Assembly: GCA_965277455.1 (NCBI GenBank)
Contig: OZ255823.1
Span: 2,438,250-2,502,249 of the forward strand
DNA length: 64,000 bases
Reading direction: 5' to 3'
Origin: Capsulimonadaceae bacterium
GTDB lineage: Bacteria; Armatimonadota; Armatimonadia; Armatimonadales; Capsulimonadaceae
Position 1 is the first letter of the stretch; each line of letters begins with the position of its first letter. The translations under genes and the position numbers were made by a program. The notes beneath the pieces are model-generated. The model was given only the letters and a program-made list of their open reading frames with translations. It was not told the origin of the DNA and searched no databases. Positions 16,279 to 58,531 of the stretch are shown piece by piece.

Positions 16279-19200
16279 TTAATTGCCCGTCGGGATTTGA
16301 AGCGTCACGTCGGTATATACTCGTATCCAGTAGGCCGTCCAGGGCTGGAGTGTATCGGTGGGCGAGACCGGCTGGTAGGCCGTTCCGTCGTAGCGGTACA
16401 GCGTCGGCGAGATCAGGTGGAAGCTCGCGCCAGAGGCATCCGCGAAGCTGCGGGTGACACCGTCGCTGCCCACGAAGTTCAGACTGGAAACGGCAGTTCC
16501 CTTGATATTGGGCACGCCGATCTGGTTCCAGGCCGGATGCAGAGCGACGCTGACGATTCCAGTGGGCGTCGTGCCGGTCTGCGTCACCGCCGTCGAGTTT
16601 TTCAGGAACACCCAGTAGCCGACACCGAGGCGCGGGGCATCGGCGGGGGCGGTCGGGTCCAGCACGTAGCTGGAAGCGACGGGGTCCCACAAAGCGACGT
16701 GCGAGCGGTTGCCGGGCGTCGTGGCTGTGTTCAGCGTGCCAAACACGCCGTCGAAGCCAAGCGATGCGTAGTTGTACGGCAGGGACACGAACTGGAGACC
16801 TGCCGGGAACGTATGCACGGCGGGCAGGCCGGTGATGCCGCTGAAGTCCAGCCGGGTGAACGTGCTCGCCGTGACGGAGACCGTCTGCGGCGCGGTGGAG
16901 ACGCCGCCCCGGCTGGCGGTGACGGTGTAGGTCCCCTGAGCCAGCGTGATCGGGCCGTAGTTGAGCGTGCCGCCGTCGGGCGCGGTCACGGCAGTCGCCG
17001 TGGAAGTCGCCGTCTTGACTGCTCCGGTGCCGGAGTTGGTAACGGTGATGGTCGCGCCTGCCAGCGGGGAGGCCCCGGAGGTGGACAGGACGAGGCCGCC
17101 GAGTGTGCCGTTGGCAACAGCGCCCAGCACAAGGTCTGGGGCGACGACGGAGGTTCCGCCGACAGCCTGCACGGTGGCGACGGCATTGCCGAAGCCGGTG
17201 GCAGTGGCGGTCAGCGTGTAGCTGCCTGCCGGGACTGTCGCCGTATAGGTTCCATCCGACGCCGTGGTCGCGGTCATGGCGACCGTGGCGGGGCTGCCCG
17301 AGGTGAAGATGACCGAGGCATTGGCGATGCCAGTGCCGGAGGCATTGATGACCCGGCCTGTGACGACGCCGGTGGCGGCGCTCAGGACGAAATTCGCCGT
17401 TGACGCCGCGCTGGCGGTGATGGTGACGCTTTGGGGCGTCGATGCACCGTAGACGGGCGGGAAGCTGGCCGTGCCGCTGTACATCCCGGCGGGGATGGTC
17501 GGCAAGCTGTAGACTCCGTTGGCATTGGTCGTGGCGATCTGCGCGGTTCCGCCCCCGGCGGGGTTGAATGTGACGGTCGCCCCGGCGATCAGGTTGCCCG
17601 AGGCGTCCTTGACCGTGCCGCTCAGAGTTCCGGGCGCGGCAGGCGACAGCGTGAGGCTGGCGCTCTGCGTGGCATCGCCTTCGACGGTGAACGTGTTGGT
17701 CGTGTTGGACGTGGTCCGTGCGAAGCCGTTTTTGTAGGCCGCGACGGTGTAGGTTCCGGGTTCTACGCCGGTGATGGTATAGTTGCCGGTCGAGTCCGAC
17801 GTGGCGCTGAAGGTGCCGCGTCCGGGGATGGTGGTCCCGTTGGAGGACACAAGATAGACAGTCGCACCGCCGATGCCTGCGCCGGAGCTGCCGTTGCCGG
17901 AGGTGGAGCGGATGGTTCCGCTGACGGTTCCGGTCCGCAGGTAGCAGACGATGTTGTGCATCATATTCTGGCGCTGATTGTGCGGGAAGTAGAACCGTGT
18001 CGCCGGGTTGCCGATATCACGCGAGTAGTAGTCGGTCGAGATGCCCTCAAAGCCGAAGGAGGCGTAGACGACTTTTGCGCCTGTGCCGCCGGTGGCGGTG
18101 TCAGAGTAGTAAACCAGTCCGTTGCCGCCCGGCGAGTTAGCCGCACCGGGGTCGCCAATGGTGTTGCTTCCATAGACATTGTTGAACGGGTTCAGCACGA
18201 GGTCTGTGTGGGAGCTGGTTTTGGACGCTGCGATGGTGTCGATCTGGCTGACGACCGAGTTGCCCTGGCCGCCGCTGTTGGAGACGCCGAATGGAGTCGC
18301 ATACGGCCCGAGCTGATCGAGAGAGCCGTCGGTGCGCCAGAACGGAACCTGATCTTTGTGGAAGTAGGTGTCTCCAAAGACGTTGCCACCGATGTTGTTG
18401 CTGATCGTGATCGGATTTTGGAAGGGAGCAACGAAATCCTGACCATTGGCTGTATTGACCTGGAAGAAGTTCATCCGGGCCTGCCCGTCGAAGAAGGCGA
18501 CGTTGGAAATCCGGTTGTTTGCGGCGTCGCCGCCGCCGGTGGCATTGTGCGTGCCCTTGTTTCCAGTGACCAGAGTGGCCCCGAGGACATCTGAGAGGAA
18601 GCCTCCTGCCGCGTTGCCCGTGGTTCCGTTCTGCGTGATGGATGAGCCGACATCCTGGCCGGTCATAAACAGGCGTCCCCCTGCTTTGACGAAGGTGCGG
18701 AGCGAGGTCTGCGTGGCGGGGTCGGTGATGGTTCCCGGTCCGACAAGCAGGTCCCCGGCGAAGGGGGCGCTCCAGACGATGCAGCGAGGGGCAACTGTTA
18801 CCGCCGGTGCAGCAGGGAATGTGACGGCGGGCGTGACAGTGCTGTCCGAGACGGCGGGCTGCGGCGTGGTGGTCGGCTCGTAGCTCTGGAACAGCGAGTC
18901 AGGGACAGGGCCGCGTGACAGGGTGCGCCAGATGCTGTACCGCTGCGATTTGACTGCTGGGACACCGTCAACGGTCTGACCGTCGTCGATGTTGGCATCC
19001 GCGTAGGAGCCGACGCCGAGGCCATTGAGCTGGCTTGTTACTCCATAGCCCGATGCGCTCACGCCATCGCTGTCGTTGAGGGTAGCGAGCTGCACCGCCA
19101 GGGTGATCGGGAACTTGCGTCCGGCGATGACCCGTGACACATAGGTTGTGTTCGGCATCAGGCTGATGTCGATGTCGGTCAGATAGGACTCGGCCCCGTA

Positions 19201-30400: not shown

Positions 30401-32195
30401 GCCCGCCGGCAATAGTGCCTGCGGCCAGCGTACCGTCGGCGCTCAGGCTGTATGTGCCGGAGGTCAGTGCGCCATTGGTGAAGTTGCCGGTCTGGTAGGC
30501 GATGCTGAACACGGATAGGAACGGCGACCAGGTCGGGTACACGTTGTCATAGACATTGCCCGTGTCATCGGTGTTGAGCTTGACCACAGTGTTAGTCGTC
30601 GCGCCAACTGCTGTGCCCTCGGCAAGCACCGTATCCGGGTTTGCGGATGTGCTGGCGGTACGCACGGTTTGCAGGTAGTAGATGTCATGCGCGGCGGCCT
30701 GACTCGCACCACGGGCGAAGGCGAGGTACTGGAAGCCAGGGGCAGGGTTGATATACTGGTTGCGGGCAGACAGCGTGATATAGCTCCAGGCTGGGCCGAA
30801 GTTGTCGGTTCCCGCCGCCGTGACACGTCCATTGCCATTGGCATTGCCTGCAAGCGCGTTCGGCACGACGCCGAAGCCCGAGGCCGTGCCGCTGCCACCG
30901 CCGCTGATCAGGAACAGGGAGCGCAGGCTGTTGACGGTCGTGCCAGCGGCCGCAGTCGTCAGCGACTGGGACTGGTTTGGGTCCTGCATGGCGGTGGGCG
31001 GATTCGGGCCAAAGCTGTTGCTGGGGTTGTTCGAAACGCCATTGGCCGTGGAGGCGAACGCAATAAACTGGCCGTCCTGCGACCACGCGGGGTCGGTATC
31101 GTCGGCGGGGCCATCGGTCAGCTTGCCGGGAAACGAAAAATTGTTGTTCGGGTCAAAGCCGAGGCTGTTGGTATACAGGAAATACAGGTGGTAGTGTCCA
31201 CCATTCGTGCCGGAGTTGGGAAAGCCGATGGTGGAAAAAGCTGAAAACACGACGAGACCGTCGTTGCCAGGCGAGAAAGTGGGCCGCTGAACGTTGCCGA
31301 AGCCAGTCTGAGATGAGCTGATGGTCTGATTCGGGTCGCGGAGTGTCACCGAAGTGATACCGTTCAGCCGGGGGTTTGACTGGGAAACATCCAGTAGGTA
31401 GGGCGGATTTGTCGTGCTTAACTGGGCATTGTTATAGGCCACCAGAGCATTGAACGAGAAGCCGCCGGCGGAGGTGGTTCCCGCGACGCTGGCTCCGAGC
31501 ACGAACAGGTTGCGCGTGCCGGGCGACTGCCCATCGGACACGAAGGCCAGCTTGCTGTTGTTGGCGGACAGGGCCGGGAAGAACTCGCCCCGGATATTGG
31601 GGTCGGTATTGGAGTCGCCGGTGATCTGGTAGGCTTCGCCGCCGGAGGCGGGAATCGCCCACAAATGGAACCGGCCATCGGGCTGGACGCCGCCCCGGAC
31701 GGTGCGGTTGGACGAGAAGACGATAAACGTCTGGTCGGCGGACCACACCGGGGTCAGGTTGGTGGGGGTCAGGTTGTTGATGAACACCGCCGAGTTGGTC
31801 GAGTCGTTGTTCAGGTTGGTAGGGGTTCCATAACCAATCAGCGGCTCAAACGCGGGAAGCGGGTTGCCGATGTCGAACGTCTGCGTGGCGTTCGGGATGG
31901 GCACGGTATTGGCGGTGGTGGCGGCGTTGGCACGCTGCAGCGCCCCGGACCGAAGCAGGCTGTGGTCAATCAGCGTGCGTCCGTTAGGCAGGTTGCGGTA
32001 GCCCGTTCGGGACGCATTGGCGGGGCCAGCGGCCTTGATAGGGGCGGCACTCAGCAGCGAGCGCAGAGTCAGTGCATCGCCGATGCTGGCCTGTGCCTGC
32101 GGCATGAGGCCAGCCAGGAGCGACAGGAGCAGCAGGGTGAAAATCAGGAAACGGGACGGGCGCGAAGCGCCGCAAGCAGTGCGTTTTGCGTTCAA
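24414..32195 (-). CDS. Giant secreted multidomain protein A (~2,593 aa): PD40 propeller, unnamed ~1,000-aa core, ~9 CarboxypepD_reg-like repeats, conserved C-terminal module
   Basis: Track ORF runs to 32384. I place the start at TTG 32193-32195 because GGGAGG lies 11 nt upstream, the context matches the giant B start, and a signal peptide follows immediately (RPSRFLIFTLLLLSLLAGLMPQAQA). Core motifs shared with giant B: LNLDPPTL, QIKDPDSKYQDA, FYLDVIAYDKAVFP, SDYALGQKFA, GGRLCITGQDVGS. Confidence 0.75.
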   Translation of the reverse strand: MNAKRTACGASRPSRFLIFTLLLLSLLAGLMPQAQASIGDALTLRSLLSAAPIKAAGPANASRTGYRNLPNGRTLIDHSLLRSGALQRANAATTANTVPIPNATQTFDIGNPLPAFEPLIGYGTPTNLNNDSTNSAVFINNLTPTNLTPVWSADQTFIVFSSNRTVRGGVQPDGRFHLWAIPASGGEAYQITGDSNTDPNIRGEFFPALSANNSKLAFVSDGQSPGTRNLFVLGASVAGTTSAGGFSFNALVAYNNAQLSTTNPPYLLDVSQSNPRLNGITSVTLRDPNQTISSSQTGFGNVQRPTFSPGNDGLVVFSAFSTIGFPNSGTNGGHYHLYFLYTNSLGFDPNNNFSFPGKLTDGPADDTDPAWSQDGQFIAFASTANGVSNNPSNSFGPNPPTAMQDPNQSQSLTTAAAGTTVNSLRSLFLISGGGSGTASGFGVVPNALAGNANGNGRVTAAGTDNFGPAWSYITLSARNQYINPAPGFQYLAFARGASQAAAHDIYYLQTVRTASTSANPDTVLAEGTAVGATTNTVVKLNTDDTGNVYDNVYPTWSPFLSVFSIAYQTGNFTNGALTSGTYSLSADGTLAAGTIAGGRSVTYNDPTTANPSEVAISIPQGGTANTSDPNNQFYTVGANYSGLFQSQVLNLDPPTLLRFAPDQVLHIQAAGAVDANGQSLNPVNGTSNKLAVTGSQNITITVRLSNREANIDDTGAAATNPNAVAGVNSPKVYLQIKDPDSKYQDAQGFEHKVFSRDRQFIGQANQPVSEANTTGTADGRVGNFGLGFGLYEGFGNGSSQSVNQYTYPSYGTPDQGTPGIAQRVTQRGSHGGHYGFPNGNNPDDALIFVGKTGGGNNPNPIAAASVGGNPARFVPFSAEYEAQFVNPQYATGGGNGTDTVITDYRSPFYLAGVDDQQAFSGQTRPPRPTANTMDANGNVTAPAEYLQMVRVPQALQDNKGGVLYTVTWKTPASPSDFYLDVIAYDKAVFPTLPAGTSTYDGQKFNFRIYDNVGGFSTQQTLPNNDILVVSDYALGQKFAATTFGGQNTNQNLIPKQFGTESYLTDVDVSILPDRVYAGAPDSPTSYNFFPILNPFLGSGTRTQLGSTFSMNPGGIRHENGLGVGSYYDGVIDDGGRNTFADPITGTSVSVPFVNSQKYTIWRILSRGPVPDTLLQSYQPTLTQQPVVVDPATGGAGTVPAQLVLDAHRCIIWLAPYTGSLLVDPGTLDDLDLTGVPNVNNRVRTQQALRSFVSNGGRLCITGQDVGSTLTLAGVSGNTPGGFLPDVLNASFNPAQTGTTTLNGTNNRIFGNALFDGSLGGFNNGGVQYLSMAGGFGSGFQIINGVFPFQDRLRLTSTDQNDGAFDEIPANRLPTGASIQGQPDVITPLNGAIVGATYDNGGNALVFHSDPYVQPANGAAPQLPNGGTGSRTVYAGFNLGALSQDYYSSDAPNPSQNPAYDLFVPEIIPRNVRSAVIHNIVSYLRSGFITGKITQTAAGNGQNANSGVPGATVYVQDINGQTPPSRAVFSATTSQSGDFVISGVEPGTYRVIAYKNGYTRAVSNSNVSFTVEGDTTAANATLTINPVPPGNIAGIVVDNTGATIPGATVTVTSQDNTVTRTTTTFDGTQAGQTKGGFLFSSVPVTTYTVATATGPLNNQGTAQYISASKANAPFDTSIVVQSGVTTGDGTKAGGVTFTLTQIGATVSGRIYSGPTDNAAGGALVAGGAVQAFATTDGTTTTGSALATTPIGADGTYTLKGILPVAAFPGTATRIVLVASAPGFTSQNFTLSLFLGDVITGQDKALTAILPGSINGKVIYSGGTTPVANAIVTFTPPGSTTPLTATTDANGNYNIAAAPAGTYSATAVGKTNKHGSVTAARTAAVNVTVTPGTPLTQNFTLTLIPPTVQGTVFDAATGVKLQNALVTVTDVTTGKMIGTALTGANGVYSPATLPLVDGGTYTIIASKAGYQSTPFIDPFTPGSKSTQITFYNGDTIAYGDFALPKLLPGTISGTVFDNLKAVVPGATVTFTSTDGTTTRMAVTDGKGAYAIPMGSVPAGNYSGMVVGPSNTNGNPEYTSPPAQTVTVSPNTTATANFTLTQILPTFAVTVTDAAGGAPITNATVTITPAAGGASTIVTANVAGVYTSPGLAPGTYTLTATAAGFFDGVNSAAVELGDTNTPVALVLNEKATVYGLITDSVTGAPLSGVTLTVANAGGTAVTTTPTIITTGTSTSAGLDGALQNYTFSLPPGTYTLTATKANFTQSISAAFTVTNALPKRVDLSLTSSIGTIGGLVTDAVAGSTTPVGGATVNVMNSAGTVVASYTTSTAASTGPDGKALNYTGQVISGTYTVTVTKGTRKSTPQTVVVKGGVFTRVDFAGATNGLPALYVFQAGLQFFSTPYDYSGLGFDGLLGTLNSSAGGSDPNGNRSHVAVWDPVAAVYKLDPTAPADTVRLGQGYWVFLKNAVPVTQQGTNAPGGFVPQPLNPTWNMIGVPNPSGVPVSSLMFDNGAGGKITYAAASTSQYAILTPGVTNIYRYDSASNTYQPVSDSAVLSPWTAYWLRVRVPATLEIPTGTSTTVTPTTPATGTGLPTVP

Positions 32196-34002: not shown

Positions 34003-34044
34003 CACAAAGGGAAAACGGAAAGAGGGCGCGGCAAGCAGCGCCCC
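34003..34044 (-). terminator. Candidate intrinsic terminator after 34081..35163
   Basis: GGGCGC-GGCAAGCA-GCGCCC hairpin, followed on the minus strand by the T-rich CTCTTTCCGTTTTCCCTTT. Confidence 0.45.
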
Positions 34045-34049
34045 TACTC

Positions 34050-34082
34050 TTGTCCCCCCATTATTGGGGGTTAGGGGGTCCT
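34050..34082. repeat. Family A solo arm (half element)
   Basis: TTGTCCCCCCATTATTGGGGGTTAGGGGGTCC matches only the right arm of A1/A2. It overlaps the stop of 34081..35163. Confidence 0.7.
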
Positions 34083-41744: not shown

Positions 41745-41881
41745 CTGCCACGGGTTAAACCCCGAGGCTAAAAAAAGCCCACCGTCCAGGGGACGTAAGA
41801 CAGCAAGGTGAGAGGCTGTCTGGTTCTTAACGTCGCTTCGACGGTGGGCACTGGAAAGCCTCGGGGTTTAACCCGTGGCAG
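41745..41881. mobile_element. REPIN/MITE-like element, family B copy 1
   Basis: Perfect 25-bp terminal inverted repeats CTGCCACGGGTTAAACCCCGAGGCT / AGCCTCGGGGTTTAACCCGTGGCAG. Lies between rplI and dnaB. Confidence 0.9.
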
Positions 41882-45780: not shown

Positions 45781-46088
45781 GGCGTTGTTGCCTAACTGTC
45801 CCTGCCCCAAAAAACCATGCCCCAAGAAACCATGCCATAAATGGCACGGCTAATCGGCCTGCGGCCAGAAAGTACCGCTTCGCGGCACTCAATTATTTGC
45901 AAATTCTCTGCACCTATATTCTCTGCACCTATATTCTCTGCACCTATATTCTCTGCTTTTATCCCCGCGAAGCGTGGGATTTCTGGCGTCCGCGCCGTCT
46001 AGCCATGCGTTTCAACGCATGGTTTCAACGCATGGTTTTATGGCATGATTCGGATTTATGGCATGGTATGGATTTATGCAACAACGCC
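45781..46088. mobile_element. Composite palindromic element, family C copy 1 (expanded)
   Basis: Outer ends GGCGTTGTTGCC...GCAACAACGCC. Inner arms CCATGCCATAAATGGCACGGCT..CGGCCTGCGGCCAGAAAGTACCGCTTCGCGGCACTC. The right half is degenerate with internal duplications. The centre carries a 15-bp tandem repeat. Confidence 0.8.
45903..45956. repeat. 15-bp tandem repeat ATTCTCTGCACCTAT, about 3.6 copies
   Basis: Read directly from the sequence. It lies in the central loop of element C1. The other family C copies have unrelated, non-repeated centres. Confidence 0.9.
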
Positions 46089-47114: not shown

Positions 47115-47117
47115 GAG

Positions 47118-47255
47118 CCATGCCATAAATGGCACGGCTACCCGGCGCGGACGCCGAAAAGTACCGCTTCGCGGCACTCGGAAAGATTTGTTCTTAGCCC
47201 CGCGAAGCGGTGCTTTCTGGCCGCAGGCCAATTAGCCGTGCCATTCATGGCATGG
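47118..47255. mobile_element. Family C copy 2 (inner core only)
   Basis: CCATGCCATAAATGGCACGGCT...CCGCTTCGCGGCACTC...AGCCCCGCGAAGCGG...AGCCGTGCCATTCATGGCATGG. It lacks the outer GGCGTTGTTGCC ends and starts 3 nt after the stop of 46767..47114. Confidence 0.85.
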
Positions 47256-47300
47256 TTTCCTCACGCAATGCGTGATGAATTCATAATCAGAGTGACGCAA

Positions 47301-48202: not shown

Positions 48203-48955
48203 ATGATTGCTCTGCAAAATGTTTCCAAGACCTACGGGGGCCGGACGGCGCTCGCCCCCACGTCTTTAACCCTCGCGCCGGGCAAAACGACCGCGCTGAT
48301 TGGGCCAAGCGGCTGCGGCAAGTCGACGCTGCTGCGTCTTCTGGTGGGGCTGATTACACCGGACGCGGGCCAGGTGATTTTGGATGACACGCCTTTGACG
48401 CCGCAGAATGCCGAGGCCAGGCGCCACAAAATCGGCTATGTCATTCAGGACGGCGGCCTGTTTCCGCACCTGACCGCCGAGGGCAACGTGTCCCTGCTGG
48501 CCCGGTTTCTGAAAAAGCCGGGCGGCGAAATCAAAGCGCGTATGGGCGAGCTTGCTAAGTTGGTGCAGCTTCCGCCGGAGTCGCTGTCGCGGTACCCGTC
48601 GGGCCTGTCCGGCGGTCAGCGGCAGCGGGTAGGGCTGATGCGGGCGCTGATGCTGGACCCGCCCCTGCTGCTTCTAGATGAACCGCTGGGGGCACTAGAC
48701 CCGATCACGCGGAGTGAGTTGCAGCAGCAGCTCAAAGACATCTTCGGGCGTCTGGGTAAAACGGTGGTGCTGGTGACACACGACATGGGCGAAGCAGCCT
48801 TTCTGGCCGATACGATTGTGCTGATGCGGGAGGGAAGCGTAGTACAGGCGGGGACTTTGGACGACCTGCTGCACCGCCCCACCGAGGCGTATGTGACGGA
48901 CTTTATCCGGGCACAGCGTTCGCCATTGCCGCCGATGCCGGAGGTGGAAGGATGA
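48203..48955 (+). CDS. Osmoprotectant (glycine betaine/choline type) ABC transporter ATP-binding protein
   Basis: Trimmed to ATG 48203 (MIALQNVSKTYGG). Motifs GPSGCGKST, LSGGQRQRVGLMRA, LLLDEPLGALD. Confidence 0.85.
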   Translation: MIALQNVSKTYGGRTALAPTSLTLAPGKTTALIGPSGCGKSTLLRLLVGLITPDAGQVILDDTPLTPQNAEARRHKIGYVIQDGGLFPHLTAEGNVSLLARFLKKPGGEIKARMGELAKLVQLPPESLSRYPSGLSGGQRQRVGLMRALMLDPPLLLLDEPLGALDPITRSELQQQLKDIFGRLGKTVVLVTHDMGEAAFLADTIVLMREGSVVQAGTLDDLLHRPTEAYVTDFIRAQRSPLPPMPEVEG

Positions 48956-50583
48956 CCTACCTCCTTGCTCCTTCGTACCTCAGTCACAGGGTCCTTCCTA
49001 AAGGAAGGATACGGATAGAACAGGAGGGCAGGGGGACCCCGCCCCTACGCCCTGTCCTAATCCTTCCTTTAGGAAGGACCCTGCGAAGCAAGGCGGTAGG
49101 TCTCCTTCTTTGCCTCCTCGCCTTTGCTGCCGTACCCGCGCAGGCGCAGACCAAAACCGTCACCGTTGGCTCCAAGCGGTTTGCCGAGTCGCGCATTCTG
49201 GGCGAGATACTCACGCAGAGGGCGAACAAAGTGGGCGAGGCCAAAGCGACCCACAAAGCGGGTCTGGGCAACACGGGGATTGTGTTTGCCGCCCTGCAAG
49301 GCGGCAGCATTGATGTCTACCCGGAATACACGGGGACGATTTCGCAGGAGCTTTTGAAGAGCAAAACACCCCTGACTCTGTCCGCGATGAACGCGAAGCT
49401 GGCCCCGCTTGGCCTCGCTGTCGGCCTGCCGCTGGGGTTCAACGACGGCTATGCCCTGGCGATGCGGGGCGATCTGGCACAGGAGCTAGGCATCAAAACG
49501 CTGTCCGATCTGGCAAAGCACCCGGAGCTAAAGCTGGGCTTGTCGCAGGAGTTTCTGAAACGCGCCGACGGCTGGCCGGGGGTCAAAGCGGCGTACAAGC
49601 TGCCGTTTGAGTCGCCGCAGGGCTTAGACCACGGGCTGGCGTATGAGGCCATTGCAGGCAAGCAGATTGATGTCACGGACATCTACACCACAGACTCGAA
49701 AATCCCCAAGTATCACCTGCGCGTTTTAGTCGACGACAGGCACTATTTTCCCATCTATGACGCTGTGCTGCTCTACCGGAAAGACCTGCCGACGCGCCTG
49801 CCTAAGACATGGGCCAAGTGGGAAACTTTGTCGGGCAAAATCACCGATGCCAAAATGATCGCGCTGAACGGGCAGGTGGAAATCGACGGCGGCACGCCCG
49901 AGAATGTCGCGGCGGCGTATCTGTCCGGCGGTTCGGTCAAAGCGACCCACGAAACGCTGTGGTCGGCCCTGACGGCGAAAGACTTCTGGCCGGAGACGCG
50001 GCAGCATTTGTTTCTCGTGTTCGCGTCGCTGGCTTTGAGCATCCTGGTCGGCATCCCGCTGGGCATCTGGGCGGCGCGGTCGCGGGCGGCGGCGCAGCCG
50101 GTGCTGGTGCTGACGGGTTTGATACAGACCATCCCTTCGCTGGCCCTGCTGGCGTTTCTGATTGCCCTGCTGCATCAGATTGGACCTATCCCGGCGATTG
50201 CGGCGCTCTTCCTATACTCGCTCCTGCCGATTGTCCGCAACACGTACACGGGTCTGACCGATATTGCGCCTTCTTTGCGCGAATCGGCGTCGGCGCTCGG
50301 CCTGCCGCCGGGGGCACGTCTGCGTCTAGTAGAGCTGCCTCTGGCGTCACGGGCGATCTTCGCGGGCATCAAAACTGCCGCCGTTATTAACGTCGGCACG
50401 GCCACGATTGCCGCCTTTATCGGCGCGGGCGGCTATGGCAACCGAATTACACAGGGGCTGGAAAACAATGACAATTTGCTGCTGCTGGCGGGGGCCATCC
50501 CAGCATCGCTGCTGGCCCTCCTGGTGCAGTACGGGTTCGATCTGCTGGACCGGGCGGTGACGCCGAAGGGGCTGCGGGGGTGA
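48952..50583 (+). CDS. Fused substrate-binding protein and permease of an Opu-type ABC transporter
   Basis: ATG overlaps the upstream stop (ATGA). Signal-like LLLCLLAFAAVPAQA. The SBP part begins TVTVGSKRFAESRILGEIL. The C-terminal permease has the EAA-type loop ESASALGLPPGARLRLVELPLA. Codons 2-50 are encoded by palindromic element E. Confidence 0.8.
   Translation: MTYLLAPSYLSHRVLPKGRIRIEQEGRGTPPLRPVLILPLGRTLRSKAVGLLLCLLAFAAVPAQAQTKTVTVGSKRFAESRILGEILTQRANKVGEAKATHKAGLGNTGIVFAALQGGSIDVYPEYTGTISQELLKSKTPLTLSAMNAKLAPLGLAVGLPLGFNDGYALAMRGDLAQELGIKTLSDLAKHPELKLGLSQEFLKRADGWPGVKAAYKLPFESPQGLDHGLAYEAIAGKQIDVTDIYTTDSKIPKYHLRVLVDDRHYFPIYDAVLLYRKDLPTRLPKTWAKWETLSGKITDAKMIALNGQVEIDGGTPENVAAAYLSGGSVKATHETLWSALTAKDFWPETRQHLFLVFASLALSILVGIPLGIWAARSRAAAQPVLVLTGLIQTIPSLALLAFLIALLHQIGPIPAIAALFLYSLLPIVRNTYTGLTDIAPSLRESASALGLPPGARLRLVELPLASRAIFAGIKTAAVINVGTATIAAFIGAGGYGNRITQGLENNDNLLLLAGAIPASLLALLVQYGFDLLDRAVTPKGLRG
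48955..49101. mobile_element. Palindromic element E, 147 bp, inserted in frame in the 5' end of the Opu SBP-permease gene
   Basis: Ends ACCTACCTCCTTGCT / AGCAAGGCGGTAGGT (14/15 match). Inner arms CAGGGTCCTTCCTAAAGGAAGGAT / ATCCTTCCTTTAGGAAGGACCCTG. The centre GGGGGACCCCGCCCCT is the reverse complement of a 16-mer in the spacer of A1 (3146-3161). Confidence 0.8.
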
Positions 50584-50600
50584 CAGCAAAACAGGCAGAG

Positions 50601-50732
50601 GAGCCACGGGTTAAAACCCGAGGCTGCCAAAAGCCCACCGTCCAGGGGACGTAAGATACGATGACGACGAGACGATTCTTGTGTCCCCTGGACACTGGGC
50701 ACTTCCGAGCCTCGGGTTTCAACCCGTGGCTC
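50601..50732. mobile_element. REPIN/MITE-like element, family B copy 2
   Basis: TIRs GAGCCACGGGTTAAAACCCGAGGCT / AGCCTCGGGTTTCAACCCGTGGCTC (24/25 match). The core shares GCCCACCGTCCAGGGGACGTAAGA with B1. Confidence 0.9.
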
Positions 50733-50750
50733 CTTTGACCACTGCTGCTG

Positions 50751-51454: not shown

Positions 51455-51874
51455 ATGAACAAGGCAAAGCTGATGGTAGAAGGTCGGAGGAGACATTATT
51501 ACCGGCTGTTTAGGCTGCCGGTGCTGACCATAGCAACACTTTGGGCAGTCGTTATGCTTTGGGATATTTTCAGAACGAGTGATGCCGAGGGCAAGCTCTG
51601 GAACGCGCTCTTAGGCGGCTCCATGATAGCTTTCATCGCGCCAGTGTGGGTTTTTGTTCGGGGGCGGGTTCCGCTGTGGCTGTCACTCTTGGTCGCCTGT
51701 GCCGCTGTGTTCAGCGTTCTAATGGTAAACGCTTGGGCGTGCCGAGCAGCAGGGACGGCTGGGACTCACTTTTACGACCATTGGTGGCTGCTCCTGTTGA
51801 GCCTGGCAGGATATGGGGTTACAAAAGCATCGGCACGATCTTTTATCGCGGACGCAACCCTTGAGCCAGACTAA
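51455..51874 (+). CDS. Hypothetical membrane protein (3-4 TM helices)
   Basis: Starts 2 nt after the previous stop. Helices VLTIATLWAVVMLW, GGSMIAFIAPVWVFV, LWLSLLVACAAVFSVLMV, WWLLLLSLAGYGV. Confidence 0.45.
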   Translation: MNKAKLMVEGRRRHYYRLFRLPVLTIATLWAVVMLWDIFRTSDAEGKLWNALLGGSMIAFIAPVWVFVRGRVPLWLSLLVACAAVFSVLMVNAWACRAAGTAGTHFYDHWWLLLLSLAGYGVTKASARSFIADATLEPD

Positions 51875-53468
51875 AACCCTCCGCTCCGCCAAGCGCCAAC
51901 TGGGGCAGTTTCTTACCCCCTCCCCCATCGCCCGTCGCCTGCTGGCGGACTTCACTTTCACCCCCACTGACACCGTGCTGGAGCCGAGCTTTGGCGACGG
52001 GTCGTTTCTGCTGCCGCTGGTGGAGTCGTTCCTGGCGCTGTATGAGGGGCCACTTGCGGAGCGGCTGGCGCGGGTGCTGACGGAGAATGTGTGGGGCGTG
52101 GAGATTGACCCGGTGCTATATGAACGGGCGCTGGCGGCGATTTCTGAACACTGGGGAGTGCTGCCGGCGCGGCACAATTTGCGGAACGCGGACTTTTTCC
52201 GGGCCGAGCTGCCAAACGGTTTCACGTATGTCGTCGGCAACCCGCCGTTCGGGGGGACGATTGCACCGGAGTTGCAGGATGCTCTGGACAAGGCGCTGGG
52301 GTGGCGCGGCGGGCACAAGATTAAGAAAGAAACGTATTCGTTTTTTATTGTCAAATCAATGGATTTGCTGGGGCTGGGCGGGCGGCTGCGGTTTATTTGC
52401 AGTGACACGTTTCTGACCATCAACACGATGCAGGGATTACGAAGACATTTGCTGGACACGGGATCGCCCAGCGTAACGCGGCTGGGGGAGTTTTCGGACG
52501 AGACGCAGTACGCAATGGTGGTGCTGGACTGGGTGAAGTCGGGCCGGGCGGAGGCGGCGACGGTAGACGGTTGCCCCGTGGCGCGGGCGCAGATAGCGGC
52601 GACGGGGAACCACTCGTGGCGGGTGACGGACGAGTACGCGCCGTATTTTGCCGGGCCAAAGCTGGGCGATTTTGTGGTGGCGACAAGCGGGATGACCGTC
52701 GGGGCGAATGCGCTGTTTGTGCGGCCTATCTTGGGCAATGCCGTGACGGAGCCGTACACATTTGAGTTCTATGAAGACCCGCTCACTCTGGTGCGGGAAA
52801 TCGAACGTGCCCGGCTCGGCGTGCTGGCTTCGGCGAAGAAAGCCGACATCGCAGCGCGGGTCTGCCGGGGCGAGACGCGGCGGGCGGTGCGGGTCGTGCC
52901 GCGTGAGACGCCGCTCACCGTTCCCCTGCCCCACCCTGACTATAAGCCGTACAATAAAGCCTCGGCGGCACTAATCTATGCCCCGCCGACGCACGTAATT
53001 TATTGGAAGGATGCCGGGGACGCGGTGCTGACGTTTAAAAAGAGCGGCCCGTGGTATCTGCACGGGGTCGGCGGACGGTCGTATTTTGGGCGCGAGGGCT
53101 TGACGTGGCAGCTCATTTCGGACACGCTGAATGTGCGCTGGCTGCCGCCGGGATATATCCTGGACAGCGGCGCTCCGTGTGCGTTTCTGCGGGAGGACGT
53201 GAGCGAAGACGAGCTGTTTTTCATTCTGGGCTGGGCGCTGTCGCCGCTGTGTGGGCGGCTCTTAAAAGACGTCATCAACCACACGAAGAACATTCAGGGC
53301 AAGGATTTCGAGCGTCTGCCGTACCCGTTCTGGCTGAGCGCGGAGGCAAAGCGCGAACTGATTGCGCGGGTCCGGGAGATGGTTGCCGAAGCGCGGGCGG
53401 GGCGGGTGCTTGGGCGGGGCGACCGGAAAGTGATGGAGGTGGGGGCTGGGTATGAGCCAACCCCCTAG
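51813..53468 (+). CDS. N6-adenine DNA methyltransferase (Eco57I/TaqI-like gamma-class) with C-terminal target-recognition-like domain
   Basis: LGQFLTP, motif I EPSFGDGSF, motif IV VVGNPPFGG. The C-terminal half has TSGMTVGANALFV and ELFFILGWALSPL. An alternative TTG start at 51861 would reduce the overlap with 51455..51874. The TAG stop lies inside repeat A2. Confidence 0.75.
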   Translation: MGLQKHRHDLLSRTQPLSQTKTLRSAKRQLGQFLTPSPIARRLLADFTFTPTDTVLEPSFGDGSFLLPLVESFLALYEGPLAERLARVLTENVWGVEIDPVLYERALAAISEHWGVLPARHNLRNADFFRAELPNGFTYVVGNPPFGGTIAPELQDALDKALGWRGGHKIKKETYSFFIVKSMDLLGLGGRLRFICSDTFLTINTMQGLRRHLLDTGSPSVTRLGEFSDETQYAMVVLDWVKSGRAEAATVDGCPVARAQIAATGNHSWRVTDEYAPYFAGPKLGDFVVATSGMTVGANALFVRPILGNAVTEPYTFEFYEDPLTLVREIERARLGVLASAKKADIAARVCRGETRRAVRVVPRETPLTVPLPHPDYKPYNKASAALIYAPPTHVIYWKDAGDAVLTFKKSGPWYLHGVGGRSYFGREGLTWQLISDTLNVRWLPPGYILDSGAPCAFLREDVSEDELFFILGWALSPLCGRLLKDVINHTKNIQGKDFERLPYPFWLSAEAKRELIARVREMVAEARAGRVLGRGDRKVMEVGAGYEPTP

Positions 53469-53551
53469 CCCCCAATAATGGGGGAACCGGATTGGGAGAA
53501 GAGAAGCGTCGTCTTACTCTGGCTCCCCCATTATTGGGGGCGGGGGGGGGC
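53459..53551. mobile_element. REPIN/MITE-like element, family A copy 2
   Basis: Same arms as A1 with a different, shorter spacer. The left arm contains the TAG stop (53466-53468) of the methyltransferase. The right end abuts the stop of 53552..53980. Confidence 0.85.
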
Positions 53552-55814: not shown

Positions 55815-58367
55815 ATGGCAACAACAAGCACACCAAGAACCAATTCGCCCCGGAAAAGCTCGCCGACGACGAAATCAGGCGGACGTGGGGGCGGCGGACG
55901 GACTCCGAAGCCGAAGCGTAAAGGGTCGCCGTTCTGGGGACGGGTCAAAGCCGTGTTTACCCTGCTGACGATCTTCGTGCTGCTGTCGGTGCTGACGCTG
56001 ATGGCCTGGGTGGCCGTGCGTATCCATGATATGCCGCGCACGATTGATATTGACACGGCCCCGATGGGCATTACCTATCTGTACTCGTCGGACGGGCAGG
56101 AACTGGCGGAGTTCTTTACCGAGCGGCGCAAAGTGGTTCCGATTGAAGACATCCCGAAGAACCTCCAGGATGCGACGGTGGCGTTTGAAGACAAGCGGTT
56201 TTATTCGCATTCGGGCGTCGATTTCCGGGGCATCGAGCGGGCACTGTATTCCAACTTCCGGCACGGCGATTTGAAGGGTGAGGGCGGCAGCACCATCACG
56301 CAGCAGCTTGCGCGGAACGCGGGTATCGAGGGATTGGACCGCAAAAAATCGTTCGGGCGCAAGTTCAATGAGCTGATTATCGCCAACCAAATCGAGAAAA
56401 GCTACACCAAGCAGGACATTCTTGCCAAGTATTTAAACCTTGTGAACTACGGCTCCGGCGCGTATGGCGTGGAAGCCGCCGCCGAAGTGTATTTCAACAA
56501 GCACGTCAAGCAGCTTGATCTGGCCCAGTGCGCCCTGCTGGCGGGGCTGCCGAACCGGCCCGCCGATTTTAGCCCGTACAAGGACATGGAAGCCGCCAAA
56601 GGGCAGCGCGGGCGCGTCTTGCAGCAGATGCTGGAACAGGGCAAAATCACGCCCGCGCAGTTCAATCAGGCCGTCAAAGAGCCGATTAAGCTCGCCGGGG
56701 CCAAAGCGCCGCCGCAGGGCAGCCAGATTTTCCATGCGCCGTTTTTTGTCAACTATGTGGTGGACCAACTGCGCCGCAAGTACGGCCCGGACCGGCTGTT
56801 TGAAGGCAACCTGAAAGTCTACACGACACTGAACTGGGAAATGCAGCAGGCGGCGGAAAAAGAGCTGGTGGAAGGCATCGACCGGGCGCGGCGGGCCGGG
56901 CATGGGCCGACGCAGGGCTGTTTGGTGGCGTTGGACCCCAAAACCGGCGGCATCAAGGCGATGGTTGGCGGCGTGGATTACAAGCAAAGCCAGTTCAACA
57001 TCGTGACGCAGGCGCGTCGTCAGCCCGGCTCATCGTTCAAGGCAGTGCTGTATTCGGCGGCCATCAATGACGGCTCGTTTAAAGAGAGCAGCACGGTTCT
57101 GGACGCCCCGGTGACATTCCGCTCTGGTGGCAAGCCGTACACGCCCCGCGATGACAGCGGCTACACCTACCGGCGCGTGACGCTGCGCGAGGCGATGGCG
57201 CAGTCCATCAACGTTCCCGCTATCCGGGTCATCAGTGTGATTGGCCCGCAGAACGTCGTTCGCTATGCCCGCATGATGGGTGTCAAGTCTCCCCTGGACC
57301 CCTATCTGGCGCTGGCGCTGGGGTCGAGCGGTGTGACGCCGCTGGAAATGGCGAGCGTGTATTCGACGTTCGCCGCTGGCGGTGATCACGCCGAGCCGGC
57401 GGCGTGGACGCGGCTGACCGACGCGCAGGGCAATGTGCTGGAAGATGTGCCGCCTTCGGTGGCGACGCACGTTTTGCAGAAGGACACCGTCGCACAGCTT
57501 AACGATATGCTGGGTGCGGTCATCACCGACGGCACGGCCCGCAACATCGACGGCATTGTGGCGGACGCGCACGGCAAAACAGGCACGACACAGGGCCATA
57601 AAGACGTGTGGTTTGTCGGCTACACTTCGGATTTGGTCTGCGCGGTCTGGGCCGGGCATCCCATTTACCGTTCCAAAGGACTGCCGCCCGCTTACGGAGA
57701 ACCGATGGAAGGCAGCGCGTGGGGATCCACCGTCTGCGCCCCGATCTGGGCCAAGTTTATGAGCCGAGGCATCCCCATTTTCCAGGCCGCCCGTGCCCGT
57801 GAGATCGCTCAGGAGAAGGCCAAACAAACGCCGGTAGCGAAGCCGCTCACGCAGGCTGACACCGATGCCGCCGCTGAGAACCCGCCCGCGCCCGCCGACA
57901 ATTCCGACGACACGCCGAAATCCCGCCGCCACTCCCGTCCTAATGCCGCCCGCGACAATGGCGACGGCACAGTGACGGTCAATGTCGATGACGGCTCCAA
58001 CCTACTGGCCCCCAGCGGCTCCGCCGGGTCGCACCCGGAGACATTCACCGCAGGCACGCAACCGACCGCGCTGTCCCCGCAGTATACGACTTCGGGCGGC
58101 GACAGCAGCGGCTCGCCTGACGACAGCAGCAGCCCGTCGGCATCCGGTACGGACGGCGGCAGCGGGGACACCGCCGCGCCGAGCCGCCGTTCCCGCCGGG
58201 ACCGCCGCCATGCCGATAGCGGCGACAACGTCAGCGTGATGGTCAACCCGGAAGACGGCCTGCTGGCAACCAAGTGGGACCCGCAGACGGTGCGCCGGTC
58301 GTTCCCACGCGGCCAGGAGCCGCACGAATACAGCCAGATGTACCCCCCGCCGCCGGGCGAGCAGTAG
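55815..58367 (+). CDS. Class A penicillin-binding protein (GT51 transglycosylase plus transpeptidase) with ~200-aa low-complexity C-terminal tail
   Basis: GT51 motifs EDKRFYSHSGVD and GGSTITQQL. Transpeptidase motifs SSFK, SIN and KTGTT. The tail is rich in D/S/G/P/A. Confidence 0.9.
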   Translation: MATTSTPRTNSPRKSSPTTKSGGRGGGGRTPKPKRKGSPFWGRVKAVFTLLTIFVLLSVLTLMAWVAVRIHDMPRTIDIDTAPMGITYLYSSDGQELAEFFTERRKVVPIEDIPKNLQDATVAFEDKRFYSHSGVDFRGIERALYSNFRHGDLKGEGGSTITQQLARNAGIEGLDRKKSFGRKFNELIIANQIEKSYTKQDILAKYLNLVNYGSGAYGVEAAAEVYFNKHVKQLDLAQCALLAGLPNRPADFSPYKDMEAAKGQRGRVLQQMLEQGKITPAQFNQAVKEPIKLAGAKAPPQGSQIFHAPFFVNYVVDQLRRKYGPDRLFEGNLKVYTTLNWEMQQAAEKELVEGIDRARRAGHGPTQGCLVALDPKTGGIKAMVGGVDYKQSQFNIVTQARRQPGSSFKAVLYSAAINDGSFKESSTVLDAPVTFRSGGKPYTPRDDSGYTYRRVTLREAMAQSINVPAIRVISVIGPQNVVRYARMMGVKSPLDPYLALALGSSGVTPLEMASVYSTFAAGGDHAEPAAWTRLTDAQGNVLEDVPPSVATHVLQKDTVAQLNDMLGAVITDGTARNIDGIVADAHGKTGTTQGHKDVWFVGYTSDLVCAVWAGHPIYRSKGLPPAYGEPMEGSAWGSTVCAPIWAKFMSRGIPIFQAARAREIAQEKAKQTPVAKPLTQADTDAAAENPPAPADNSDDTPKSRRHSRPNAARDNGDGTVTVNVDDGSNLLAPSGSAGSHPETFTAGTQPTALSPQYTTSGGDSSGSPDDSSSPSASGTDGGSGDTAAPSRRSRRDRRHADSGDNVSVMVNPEDGLLATKWDPQTVRRSFPRGQEPHEYSQMYPPPPGEQ

Positions 58368-58517
58368 AACCCCTCCCGCTCGTTCCTCGCTCCCTCCCCT
58401 GTTAGGGGAGGGTTAAGATACGGACAAAAGGCATAAGCCCTGCGCCAGCTCTCTTCTCCGGCTCCTTCTGTGCCCTTCCCTAACAGGGGAGGGAGCGAGG
58501 AACGAGCGGGAGGGGTC
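58368..58517. repeat. Palindromic element F (single copy in window)
   Basis: Arms of about 44 bp: ACCCCTCCCGCTCGTTCCTCGCTCCCTCCCCTGTTAGGGGAGGG / CCCTTCCCTAACAGGGGAGGGAGCGAGGAACGAGCGGGAGGGGT. It starts 1 nt after the PBP1A stop and ends 15 nt before the PBP2 ATG. Confidence 0.8.
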
Positions 58518-58531
58518 TTACCTAAAACCCT

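What the first reader, a model, noticed from the sequence alone, without database searches (positions are those of the whole stretch)
48955..49101. 147-bp palindromic element inserted in frame between translationally coupled ABC transporter genes
The ATPase gene stop and the SBP-permease start overlap (ATGA at 48952-48955). Element E begins at the last base of that stop codon and runs for exactly 147 bp, or 49 codons. The downstream ORF therefore stays open and gains TYLLAPSYLSHRVLPKGRIRIEQEGRGTPPLRPVLILPLGRTLRSKAVG ahead of its hydrophobic signal segment LLLCLLAFAAVPAQA. I saw no in-frame ATG, GTG or TTG between the element and the signal peptide. Either the repeat is translated as an N-terminal extension, or initiation uses a non-canonical codon. 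The insertion site is consistent with the just-after-a-stop-codon preference of the other elements. The element centre shares a 16-mer (AGGGGCGGGGTCCCCC) with the spacer of A1, which indicates mosaic elements.
Basis: partly seen in the sequence, partly recalled or inferred. Interest (0 to 1): 0.65.

Follow-up and report, generated by a model that had tools for sequence, protein, structure and literature searches.

The report
Palindromic repeat translated inside signal peptide
A 150-bp palindromic repeat has landed just after the stop codon of an ABC-transporter ATPase gene, which is also codon 2 of the overlapping next gene, and it appears to be translated as a harmless extra ~47 residues at the front of that protein's cleavable export signal; mobile repeats fused in frame to genes are a known kind of event, but here relatives show different repeats at the same spot.

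Summary
ATGA at 48952-48955 joins an ATPase gene to an OpuAC-SBP/permease fusion gene. A long imperfect palindrome follows (RNA fold -117.7 kcal/mol, z -9.8). The frame stays open, and 48952 is the only in-frame ATG/GTG/TTG before the mature protein.

The element belongs to a dispersed family in Capsulimonadaceae/Armatimonadales MAGs: 92 full copies in the DNA fetched, with ends GACCTACC...GGTAGGTC. By family ends it spans 48954-49102, about 149-151 bp, not exactly 147. Family lengths show no multiple-of-3 bias, and only one of its six frames is open, the one in use.

Element ends abut stop codons of upstream genes (47 of 184 ends within 2 nt). With an ATGA overlap, that position is inside the next gene.

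In all 13 orthologous junctions read as DNA, the coupled start is kept and the frame from it is stop-free. That includes 10 loci carrying insertions of at least four unrelated palindrome types. Close relatives carry E alleles that differ by indels, all multiples of 3.

Best reading: the repeat is translated from the coupled ATG as a basic, unstructured extension of the signal-peptide n-region. It is a tolerated passenger. Rickettsia RPE and Yersinia YPAL fusions are the precedents. This is a new variant of a known kind, of moderate interest.

The parts
48203..48955 (+). ABC transporter ATPase gene (OpuCA/ProV-like, 250 aa from ATG 48203). Stop TGA at 48953-48955.
   Evidence: Pfam ABC_tran, E 6e-37. 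Orthologues are 250-254 aa and end at the same relative place.
48940..48944 (+). Shine-Dalgarno GGAGG, 7 nt upstream of ATG 48952, inside the ATPase 3' end.
   Evidence: Read from the sequence. The same ccggagg...ATGA context is seen in L193, L194 and L189.
48952..48955 (+). ATGA overlap: start of the SBP-permease gene and stop of the ATPase gene (translational coupling).
   Evidence: The overlap is conserved in 13 of 13 orthologous loci (ATGA or GTGA; TAATG in L107).
48954..49102 (.). Element E: one copy of a dispersed nested-palindrome repeat family with ends GACCTACC...GGTAGGTC. The repeated stretch runs on to about 49104.
   Evidence: Inverted repeats. 92 full copies and 143 blastn hits in the loci fetched from Capsulimonadaceae/Armatimonadales MAGs. 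Read loose ends at 48954 and 49104/49105, with a depth spike over the element.
48954..48969 (.). Left terminal inverted repeat. It pairs with 49087-49102.
   Evidence: 16 nt, 94% complementary. Conserved across the family.
49087..49102 (.). Right terminal inverted repeat.
48987..49010 (.). Inner module CAGGGTCCTTCCTAAAGGAAGGAT (itself a small hairpin, TCCTTCC-TAAA-GGAAGGA). Repeated in inverted orientation at 49060-49083.
   Evidence: Exact on both strands, 0 expected by chance. It is the most conserved part of the family.
49060..49083 (.). Inverted copy of the inner module. It contains the SD-like AGGAAGGA and the in-frame CTG at 49081-49083.
49011..49059 (.). Variable centre of the element. 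49030-49047 is shared with the spacer of the palindrome at 3079-3214.
   Evidence: The centre differs in sequence and length between family copies and between E alleles of close relatives. The 16/18-mer match is.
48952..50583 (+). Substrate-binding-protein/permease fusion gene of an osmoprotectant-type ABC transporter, 543 aa.
   Evidence: Pfam OpuAC 68-325 and BPD_transp_1 367-536. More than 100 close homologues. AlphaFold model has mean pLDDT 87.8.
48955..49092 (+). Element-encoded extension of the signal-peptide n-region: residues 2-47, K+R 9 against D+E 2 over residues 1-50, hydrophilic.
   Evidence: Translation, charge and hydropathy. pLDDT below 50 for residues 1-41.
49093..49146 (+). 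Signal-peptide h- and c-regions AVGLLLCLLAFAAVPAQA. The Ala-x-Ala motif precedes QTKTVTVGSKRF.
   Evidence: It is the only strongly hydrophobic stretch of the N-terminus. Predicted helix 44-64. Equivalent to the signal peptides of the 'empty' orthologues L187-L189.

Best explanation
Element E is a non-autonomous, nested-palindrome repeat, MITE/REPIN-like. It belongs to a family abundant in this Armatimonadota (Capsulimonadaceae-like) clade.

Members of the family sit with one end against the stop codon of an upstream gene. Here the upstream ATPase gene overlaps the next gene by ATGA, so 'just after the stop' is codon 2 of the SBP-permease gene.

The copy survives for two reasons. It is read in the single open frame of its six. 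And it lies in the n-region of a cleavable Sec-type signal peptide, which tolerates extra length.

Translation starts at ATG 48952, by coupling to termination of the ATPase and with the SD GGAGG 7 nt upstream. It runs through the element and adds about 47 basic, unstructured residues ahead of the hydrophobic core. The extension is presumably removed with the signal peptide at AQA|Q, leaving the mature transporter unchanged.

Shown here: the family and its ends, the stop-codon association, conservation of the coupled start, preservation of the frame across independent insertions and indels, and the absence of any other canonical start.

Inferred: actual translation, export and cleavage, the coupling mechanism, and that the element is a neutral passenger rather than a functional part.
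For: 1. Family. More than 106 matching stretches, nearly all in Capsulimonadaceae/Armatimonadales MAGs. 92 full copies of 94-278 bp with conserved ends.

2. Stop-codon association. 47 of 184 element ends have the stop of an ORF of at least 100 aa within -2..+2 nt. The peaks are at -2 (a T plus the element's GA makes TGA, as in the window) and at +2. 54 of 92 copies have such a stop within -12..+10 nt. The window's other palindromes do the same.

3. Frame. E is open in 1 of 6 frames, the one used. Family lengths are 33/30/29 for length mod 3, and only 91 of 552 frame passages are open. An in-frame, open copy is therefore a selected outcome, not a built-in property.

4. Orthologous junctions read as DNA. 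13 of 13 keep the overlapping start and have 0 stops before the h-region. Three are short 'empty' sites (L187-L189, 25-27 codons before GSKRF). Ten carry +3 to +47 extra codons. These come from E (window, L199, L198), the CCCCCAATAATGGGGG type (L190, L193, L191), the GGGGAGGGG type (L107, L192) and the GGAACCCACC type (L194, L195/196).

5. No alternative start. There is no internal in-frame ATG/GTG/TTG in the window, L192, L193 or L195.

6. Close relatives. Proteins at least 90% identical carry E alleles with 50, 50, 51, 46, 46 and 31 residues before the h-region, plus a ~30-nt remnant. All are in frame. L199 has lost the right arm, so the hairpin and the CTG/SD-like site are gone, yet the frame is kept.

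7. Homologues overall. Of 124 homologues, 33 have 20-29 residues before GSKRF and 66 have 50-79.

8. The extension is net +7 and hydrophilic, and the only hydrophobic core is residues 46-58. AlphaFold gives pLDDT below 50 for residues 1-41, a helix at 44-64 and a confident mature fold.

9. A JGI gene call that skipped the repeat (P0063) proved open from the ATGA in the DNA.

10. A second gene shows the same thing. A secreted dienelactone-hydrolase-like ORF (L025 428-1570) overlaps its upstream ORF by ATGA. It carries an E copy in frame, in a different element frame, with no canonical start after it.

11. Precedent. RPE, ERIC and YPAL elements are found fused in frame, and one YPAL fusion forms part of a signal peptide (PMC10969869, PMC2229807).
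Against: - There is no direct expression evidence. No RNA runs hold this locus, and there is no proteomics.
- The fold sequesters the SD and the ATG in the extended stem, so free initiation at 48952 would be poor. The model relies on coupling and on co-transcriptional translation.
- An in-frame CTG at 49081, preceded by AGGAAGGA, would give a textbook signal peptide (M)RSKAVGLLL.... This resembles the empty-site N-terminus MRSKLIILLLL of L187.
- The number of truly independent insertion and indel events is an estimate. Several loci share ancestry.
- Some orthologues have internal in-frame GTG/TTG/ATG codons (L190, L107, L194), so internal starts cannot be excluded there.
- In the hydrolase family some long N-termini are gene-call over-extensions (P0138 against P0136).
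- Signal-peptide function of a 65-residue presequence was judged by simple rules only. No signal-peptide predictor was available.
Confidence: 0.75

Rival explanations
1. The element is an untranslated intercistronic spacer. The SBP-permease starts inside the right arm at the near-cognate CTG 49081, using the SD-like AGGAAGGA at 49071-49078, and yields (M)RSKAVGLLLCLLAFAAVPAQA.
For: CTG 49081 is in frame and is preceded by a purine-rich stretch. The resulting N-terminus looks like the empty-site peptide MRSKLIILLLL of L187.
Against: - If the start lay downstream, the frame and stops between the ATGA and the CTG would be free to vary. Yet 10 of 10 insertion-bearing loci and all E alleles keep the frame.
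- L199 has deleted the arm holding CTG/AGGAAGGA and still keeps the frame from the ATG.
- The CTG lies in the 3' arm of a -117.7 kcal/mol hairpin.
- LGRTLRSK is simply the conserved right end of the family read in this frame, and it occurs in unrelated copies.
- CTG is a rare bacterial start codon (established knowledge).
Confidence: 0.08
2. The hairpin is kept because it does something at the RNA level. For example, it might lock the SD and start so that the permease is made only by ribosomes finishing the ATPase (strict coupling), or it might stabilise or attenuate the transcript. The coding capacity would then be only a side condition.
For: - The minimum-free-energy fold pairs GGAGGUGGAAGGA (SD to ATG) with the Leu codons just beyond the element, extending the stem.
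- Empty-site orthologues also pair the SD with the Leu-codon stretch.
- MITE and REP hairpins are known to modulate neighbouring mRNAs (PMC2229807).
Against: - Close relatives have lost the right arm (L199) or nearly the whole element (L198) while keeping the gene and the frame. The hairpin is therefore dispensable.
- Other lineages carry quite different palindromes, or none, at the site.
- The empty-site folds are weak, z -1.5 to -2.9.
- This reading is not exclusive of translation of the element.
Confidence: 0.12
3. The insertion has inactivated the gene, which is a recent pseudogene or is untranslated in this genome.
For: A 150-bp hairpin at codon 2 could block expression, and there are no expression data.
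Against: - The ORF is intact over 543 aa with full-length domains, and it is 76-84% identical to the closest homologues outside its own ≥90% cluster.
- The same element state persists in at least six related genomes with the downstream gene intact, and the indels keep the frame.
- The model of the mature part is confident.
Confidence: 0.04
4. Assembly artefact: a repeat was wrongly placed at this junction.
For: Short-read contigs break inside the element.
Against: - Contigs of the source run match the window exactly on both sides, running into the element: 48500-48998 and 49077-49600 with 0 differences.
- A ~94% identical relative in another metagenome also runs from the ATPase gene into the element.
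- Independent assemblies give the same N-terminus.
Confidence: 0.01

Closest known systems
Rickettsia palindromic elements (RPE; Ogata et al. 2000, 2002, as reviewed in PMC10969869 and PMC2229807)
   Same: A palindromic repeat of about 100-150 bp with terminal inverted repeats, dispersed in the genome. It is found inserted in frame in a conserved protein-coding gene without destroying it, and the peptide lies outside the folded core.
   Different: - RPE families carry a conserved ORF, and roughly half of the copies are intragenic.
- The E family shows no multiple-of-3 length bias (33/30/29), and only about 16% of frame passages are open.
- Most E copies are intergenic, next to stop codons.
- The two in-frame copies seen use different element frames.
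- The phylum is different. Sequence similarity to RPE was not tested.
Intragenic ERIC/YPAL fusions in enterobacteria (Delihas 2007; PMC2229807), including Y. pestis YPO1552, whose signal peptide is partly formed by a YPAL element
   Same: A small palindromic mobile sequence is fused in frame at the 5' end of a gene and contributes to a signal peptide. L198 (P0127) is the closest parallel: a ~30-nt remnant of E now supplies part of the h-region.
   Different: - Here the host gene is an old, conserved transporter gene, not a new ORF.
- The element lengthens the n-region rather than creating the hydrophobic core.
- The same site has been hit by several unrelated families in related lineages.
REP/REPIN and BIME-type extragenic palindromes
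   Same: There are two inverted copies of a short hairpin-forming module (GGTCCTTCC-TAAA-GGAAGGA) around a variable spacer. Location is just downstream of stop codons. Many copies are present, and different modules are nested or combined as mosaics.
   Different: - E has additional long terminal inverted repeats.
- No RAYT gene was looked for.
- REP elements are by definition extragenic, whereas this copy is inside a coding sequence.
Translational coupling through overlapping stop/start (ATGA) in ABC-transporter operons
   Same: A 4-nt overlap, an SD inside the upstream gene, and conservation across orthologues.
   Different: Normally the downstream coding sequence follows the start directly. 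Here a 150-bp hairpin-forming repeat sits between the start codon and the rest of the gene.

Membership tests
MITE (miniature inverted-repeat transposable element) | Small (about 100-300 bp), no transposase gene | tested here: met
   94-278 bp. In the window copy 5 of 6 frames carry stops, and the open one encodes a 49-aa low-complexity peptide.
MITE (miniature inverted-repeat transposable element) | Terminal inverted repeats conserved among many dispersed copies | tested here: met
   GACCTACCNCCTTG.../...CAAGGNGGTAGGTC in 92 full copies from several MAGs.
MITE (miniature inverted-repeat transposable element) | Target-site duplication flanking the copies | tested here: inconclusive
   Flanks are mostly GA|...|TC or GGA|...|TCC, which are inverted and so probably part of the TIR. 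A few copies have AT|...|AT. No consistent direct repeat was seen. No clean empty site exists for this locus.
MITE (miniature inverted-repeat transposable element) | A related autonomous IS with the same ends | tested here: not met
   Pairs of family ends 0.5-3.5 kb apart in about 0.9 Mb of held sequence enclose ordinary-looking, non-repeated ORFs judged by eye from their translations (no family search was run), not evident transposases. Whole genomes were not searched.
RPE-like 'protein-coding palindrome' | In-frame insertion in a conserved protein gene that stays intact | tested here: met
   Window ORF 48952-50583. A second case is L025 428-1570.
RPE-like 'protein-coding palindrome' | The family as a whole keeps an ORF (length a multiple of 3, conserved peptide) and is frequently intragenic | tested here: not met
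   Length mod 3 is 33/30/29. 91 of 552 frame passages are open. Most copies abut gene ends. The two in-frame copies use different frames.
RPE-like 'protein-coding palindrome' | Sequence relatedness to Rickettsia RPE families | not tested
The family was found only in Armatimonadota-labelled MAGs, apart from two stray hits.
REP/REPIN | Inverted doublet of a short imperfect palindrome, extragenic, close to 3' ends of genes | tested here: met
   The 24-nt module is present in inverted orientation. 54 of 92 copies have an ORF stop within -12..+10 nt of an end. This particular copy, however, is intragenic.
REP/REPIN | Cognate RAYT (IS200/IS605-like Y1 transposase) in the genome, flanked by the REP | not tested
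   Would need the whole genomes.
Translationally coupled gene pair | Overlapping stop/start with an SD in the upstream gene, conserved in orthologues | tested here: met
   ATGA with GGAGG 7 nt upstream. 13 of 13 loci keep the overlap. Coupling itself is not testable with these tools.
Sec-type cleavable signal peptide with extended n-region | Positively charged n-region, a hydrophobic core of about 10-15 residues, and small residues at -3/-1 | tested here: met
   Net +7 before the core. The core is AVGLLLCLLAFAAV. A-Q-A precedes Q66. Predicted helix 44-64. Some orthologues have lipobox variants (LSGC, LAGC) at the same place. No dedicated predictor was available, and cleavage is not testable here.

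The most novel reading that the evidence does not exclude
In this Armatimonadota clade, the first codons of secreted-protein genes that overlap or closely follow an upstream stop codon act as recurrent 'safe harbours' for several unrelated palindromic repeat families. The repeats home to stop codons, and signal-peptide n-regions tolerate them. The result is that most orthologues of at least two unrelated exported proteins carry element-derived, translated presequences that turn over quickly: gain, in-frame decay, and even recruitment into the h-region. That would be an RPE-like phenomenon outside Rickettsia with a defined structural niche, and a natural experiment on how long and how structured a signal-peptide n-region, and its mRNA, can be.
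Probability: 0.4. Interest if true: 0.7.

Novelty: new variant of a known kind. Interest (0 to 1): 0.55.

Why it matters
- It gives a mechanistic reason why a selfish palindromic repeat can sit inside an essential-looking gene: stop-codon-proximal insertion, plus an overlapping gene pair, plus a disposable signal-peptide n-region.
- It is a cautionary case for annotation. One pipeline skipped the repeat and truncated the gene (P0063). In the unrelated hydrolase family used for comparison, other calls over-extend ORFs through repeats.
- It offers natural variants for testing how ribosomes that re-initiate at an ATGA overlap deal with a very stable hairpin, and how much extra n-region Sec export tolerates. 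The variants are the full element, a half element, a remnant and the empty site in proteins at least 80-90% identical.
- If the pattern is general in these genomes, it extends the 'protein-coding palindrome' idea beyond Rickettsia.

Tried and rejected
- Metagenome scan for orthologous loci.
- Possible counter-examples. P0063 (called from VGEAHATHQ) proved to be a gene-call artefact, because the DNA is open from the ATGA. L197/P0051 is a contig that starts inside the repeat and is uninformative. P0062, P0065, P0097 and P0109 could not be checked because the look-ups were exhausted.
- 'Elements insert into loops of pre-existing hairpins'. Complementarity of the 15-nt flanks beyond the TIR is not above shuffled pairs (3.9 against 4.0 of 15). 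Rejected. The SD:Leu-codon pairing in empty sites is weak.
- Autonomous IS partner: none found in the held sequence.
- Target-site duplication: none consistent.
- Rfam: only sub-threshold matches of the hairpin to miRNA precursor models, which is noise.
- RNA-seq: no RNA run holds the locus.
- Literature on palindromic repeats in Armatimonadetes: nothing relevant.
- The idea that the right-end 'RSK' is ancestral gene sequence, because L187 starts MRSK. Rejected, since CCCTGCGAAGCAAGG...GGTAGGTC is the conserved right end of the family.
Full report
**1. What is in the sequence.**

The stretch 48203-48955 encodes an ABC-transporter ATPase (Pfam ABC_tran). The stretch 48952-50583 encodes a 543-aa fusion of an OpuAC substrate-binding domain and a BPD_transp_1 permease. 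The two genes overlap by ATGA at 48952-48955, and GGAGG lies 7 nt upstream.

Immediately after comes a long imperfect palindrome:
- The outer arms 48954-48969/49087-49102 are 94% complementary.
- The inner 50-nt arms are 48984-49033/49037-49086.
- A 24-mer is exact in both arms, against none expected by chance.

As RNA the region folds at -117.7 kcal/mol (z -9.8), and the stem extends over the SD and the start codon. The reading frame from ATG 48952 is open. It gives a 47-residue hydrophilic, basic stretch (K+R 9, D+E 2 over residues 1-50), then AVGLLLCLLAFAAVPAQA, then the mature domain. There is no other in-frame ATG, GTG or TTG. The 16-mer shared with 3146-3161 is real and extends to 18 nt.

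**2.

A 20-mer from the arm found more than 106 stretches. Almost all are in MAGs labelled Capsulimonadaceae or Armatimonadales. The homologues of the transporter point to the same clade, and the locus is held by lichen and rock metagenomes.

blastn of E against these loci gave 143 copies, and 92 full copies were delimited by their ends. The family is defined by GACCTACC...GGTAGGTC, usually flanked by GA/TC or GGA/TCC. It has conserved arms carrying the hairpin module GGTCCTTCC-TAAA-GGAAGGA and a centre that varies freely in sequence and length.

In window coordinates the repeat is 48954-49102. Read loose ends and a large depth spike put the repeated stretch at 48954-49104. The G of the ATG and the GA of the TGA therefore coincide with the element's consensus end. 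The element is about 149-151 bp, not 147.

The family is not built to be coding:
- Lengths of 94-278 bp fall 33/30/29 into the three residue classes mod 3.
- Only 91 of 552 frame passages are stop-free.
- The window copy is open in one frame of six, the one in use.

**3. Why this site.**

Element ends abut the stop codons of real-looking upstream genes. 47 of 184 ends have the stop of an ORF of at least 100 aa within 2 nt. There are two sharp peaks: a T followed by the element's GA, giving TGA exactly as in the window (18 ends), and stop-GA-GACC (15 ends). 54 of 92 copies have such a stop within -12..+10 nt.

The other palindromic families in the window behave alike. Examples are 47115 directly after the stop at 47114, 50596 at 12 nt after the transporter's stop, and 34082, 41881, 53460 and 58364.

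Where two genes overlap by ATGA, 'just after the stop' lies inside the downstream gene.

**4. The orthologous junction is a hot spot, and the frame is always kept.**

Thirteen junctions were read as DNA: the window, L107, L187-L196, L198 and L199. All keep the overlapping stop/start (ATGA or GTGA; TAATG in L107). All are stop-free from that start to the hydrophobic core.

Three are short 'empty' sites: MRSKLIILLLL..., MSSKFVILLLL... and MKTTLFLFFLL..., with 25-27 codons before the GSKRF anchor. Ten carry extra codons derived from at least four unrelated palindromes:

| Palindrome type | Loci |
|---|---|
| E | window, L199, L198 |
| CCCCCAATAATGGGGG | L190, L193, remnant in L191 |
| GGGGAGGGG | L107, remnant in L192 |
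| GGAACCCACC...GGTGGGTTCC composite | L194, L195/196 |

In the window, L192, L193 and L195 the coupled ATG is the only canonical start before the mature protein.

At the protein level, 33 of 124 homologues have 20-29 residues before GSKRF and 66 have 50-79.

The one apparent counter-example was an IMG gene call starting downstream of the signal peptide. It is an annotation artefact, because the DNA is open from the ATGA.

**5. Close relatives give the sharpest test.**

The cluster at 90% identity that contains the window's protein holds nine sequences:
- Five carry full E copies at the same place. Their centres differ by 1- and 4-codon indels (50, 50, 51, 46 and 46 residues before the core).
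- One (L199) has lost the whole right arm, leaving 31 residues. The hairpin is gone, and so is the CTG/AGGAAGGA candidate.
- One (L198) keeps only about 30 nt of the left end, which now reads as part of the hydrophobic core (MKTSLLVPSFLCLLACLPAQA).
- Two carry other elements.

Every one of these states is in frame. A ~94% identical strain in a lichen metagenome also runs from the ATPase into the element without gaps.

If translation began downstream of the element, frame and stops in it would be free. Take conservatively four independent insertions and five independent indels, each with a one-in-three chance of keeping frame. That gives roughly 5e-5, before counting the stop-free requirement. 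This is my own rough calculation.

The dispensability of the right arm also argues that what is conserved is the reading frame, not the hairpin.

**6. Mechanism proposed.**

A ribosome finishing the ATPase at TGA 48953-48955 re-initiates at the overlapping ATG. It then unwinds or pre-empts the hairpin as it elongates and makes a precursor with a 65-residue presequence. The element-encoded part is positively charged and non-hydrophobic, so it stays cytoplasmic as a long n-region. AlphaFold gives it no structure (pLDDT below 50 for residues 1-41), followed by a helix at 44-64 and a confident mature fold (mean pLDDT 87.8).

Cleavage at AQA|Q would remove it. Some orthologues have a lipobox at the same position. 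This explains why the mature transporter is indifferent to what sits there.

The steps from 're-initiates' onward are inferred. No RNA or protein data exist for this organism.

**7. A second gene shows the same thing.**

Among the 92 family copies, one lies in a secreted dienelactone-hydrolase-like gene, L025 428-1570. Its ATG overlaps the stop of the upstream ORF by ATGA, and the E copy at 464-600 is in frame. It is read in a different element frame (DLPSLLRRVLPKGR...). It is followed directly by SLRRLGGLLLLLALSPAVRAQA, with no canonical start in between.

Homologues of this protein again show many different element-like presequences, including one from the window's own genome. Some of them are plainly gene-call over-extensions, for example P0138 against P0136, which has an internal Met at the core. 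This generalisation is therefore tentative. Most E copies that are 'open' into a downstream gene have a proper start after the element and are simply in 5' leaders.

**8. Comparison with what is known.**

Small palindromic mobile sequences fused in frame to genes are established:
- Rickettsia RPEs: about 150 bp, nearly half of them intragenic, and one host protein shown to be translated and active.
- The Neisseria 107-bp Correia form.
- Intragenic ERIC.
- Yersinia YPAL, including an exported protein whose signal peptide is partly MITE-derived (PMC10969869, PMC2229807).

The present case works like these. It is not an RPE-type family, because the family-wide ORF criterion fails. Architecturally it is closest to a MITE with REPIN-like inner modules. 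No target duplication, IS partner or RAYT was established. Rfam holds nothing like it, and I found no paper on such repeats in Armatimonadota.

What is new is the combination: insertion close to a stop codon, meeting an ATGA overlap, and landing in a signal-peptide n-region, repeated with several families at one site and followed by in-frame decay.

**9. Verdict.**

The CTG-start alternative is at about 0.08. The finding is a new variant of a known kind and of moderate interest (0.55). If the 'safe harbour' pattern proves general in these genomes, it would deserve more.

Noticed in passing
window 47115-47260, 50596-50737, 34042-34082, 41745-41881, 58364-58521, 3079-3214: At least four other palindromic repeat families in the window also start within 0-12 nt of the stop codon of an ORF of at least 100 aa. 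For example, 47115 follows the stop at 47114 directly, and 50596 lies 12 nt after the transporter's stop.
   Followed up: partly
window 53460-53548 (ORF 51813-53468): The N6_Mtase/Eco57I-like ORF ends at 53468, inside the palindrome that begins at 53460 (the CCCCCTAGCCCCC motif). Its last codons and its TAG stop seem to be supplied by the repeat.
   Followed up: no
L198 1501-1590 (protein P0127): A close relative keeps only about 30 nt of the left end of E. That remnant now encodes SLLVPSFL, part of the hydrophobic core of the signal peptide, so a repeat fragment has been recruited into a functional segment.
   Followed up: partly
L025 428-1570: A second, unrelated exported protein (dienelactone-hydrolase-like) has an E-family copy in frame between an ATGA-overlapping start and its signal-peptide core. 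Its homologues show many other element-like presequences.
   Followed up: partly
L187-L189 1471-1560; window 48940-48952 with 49103-49117: In empty-site orthologues and in the window, the purine-rich SD region can pair with the CUC/CUU Leu codons of the signal-peptide core. The start codon then sits in or near the loop. The z-scores are weak, -1.5 to -2.9.
   Followed up: partly
L001-L106 (e.g. L037 5629-5767, L073 4220-4384, L087 3430-3552): Many E copies are flanked by GGGGGAGCCGGA|...|TCCGGCTCCCCC, which are the arms of the CCCCCAATAATGGGGG family. The families are therefore often nested or adjacent. The centres of E copies are interchangeable cassettes.
   Followed up: partly
window 14456-14644 and 14930-14989: A long run of TGTTGTTG-type 9-nt periodic repeats, probably a low-complexity coding stretch on one strand (family D1).
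   Followed up: no
window 16579-20889 versus 24789-30551: A series of 74-87% identical direct repeats spaced about 8.0-9.8 kb apart (families D2, D4, D5, D11, D15, D20). This suggests a diverged tandem duplication of a multi-gene block.
   Followed up: no
window 45897-45960: A short tandem repeat reads MQILCTYILCTYILCTYILC at the head of an over-long ORF that runs into the phosphoribosyltransferase gene. The real start is probably downstream.
   Followed up: no
L195/L196 1231-1500: The IMG gene call (P0063) starts 270 nt downstream of the ATGA and drops the signal peptide, although the frame is open. Repeat-containing 5' ends are being mis-annotated in public data.
   Followed up: yes
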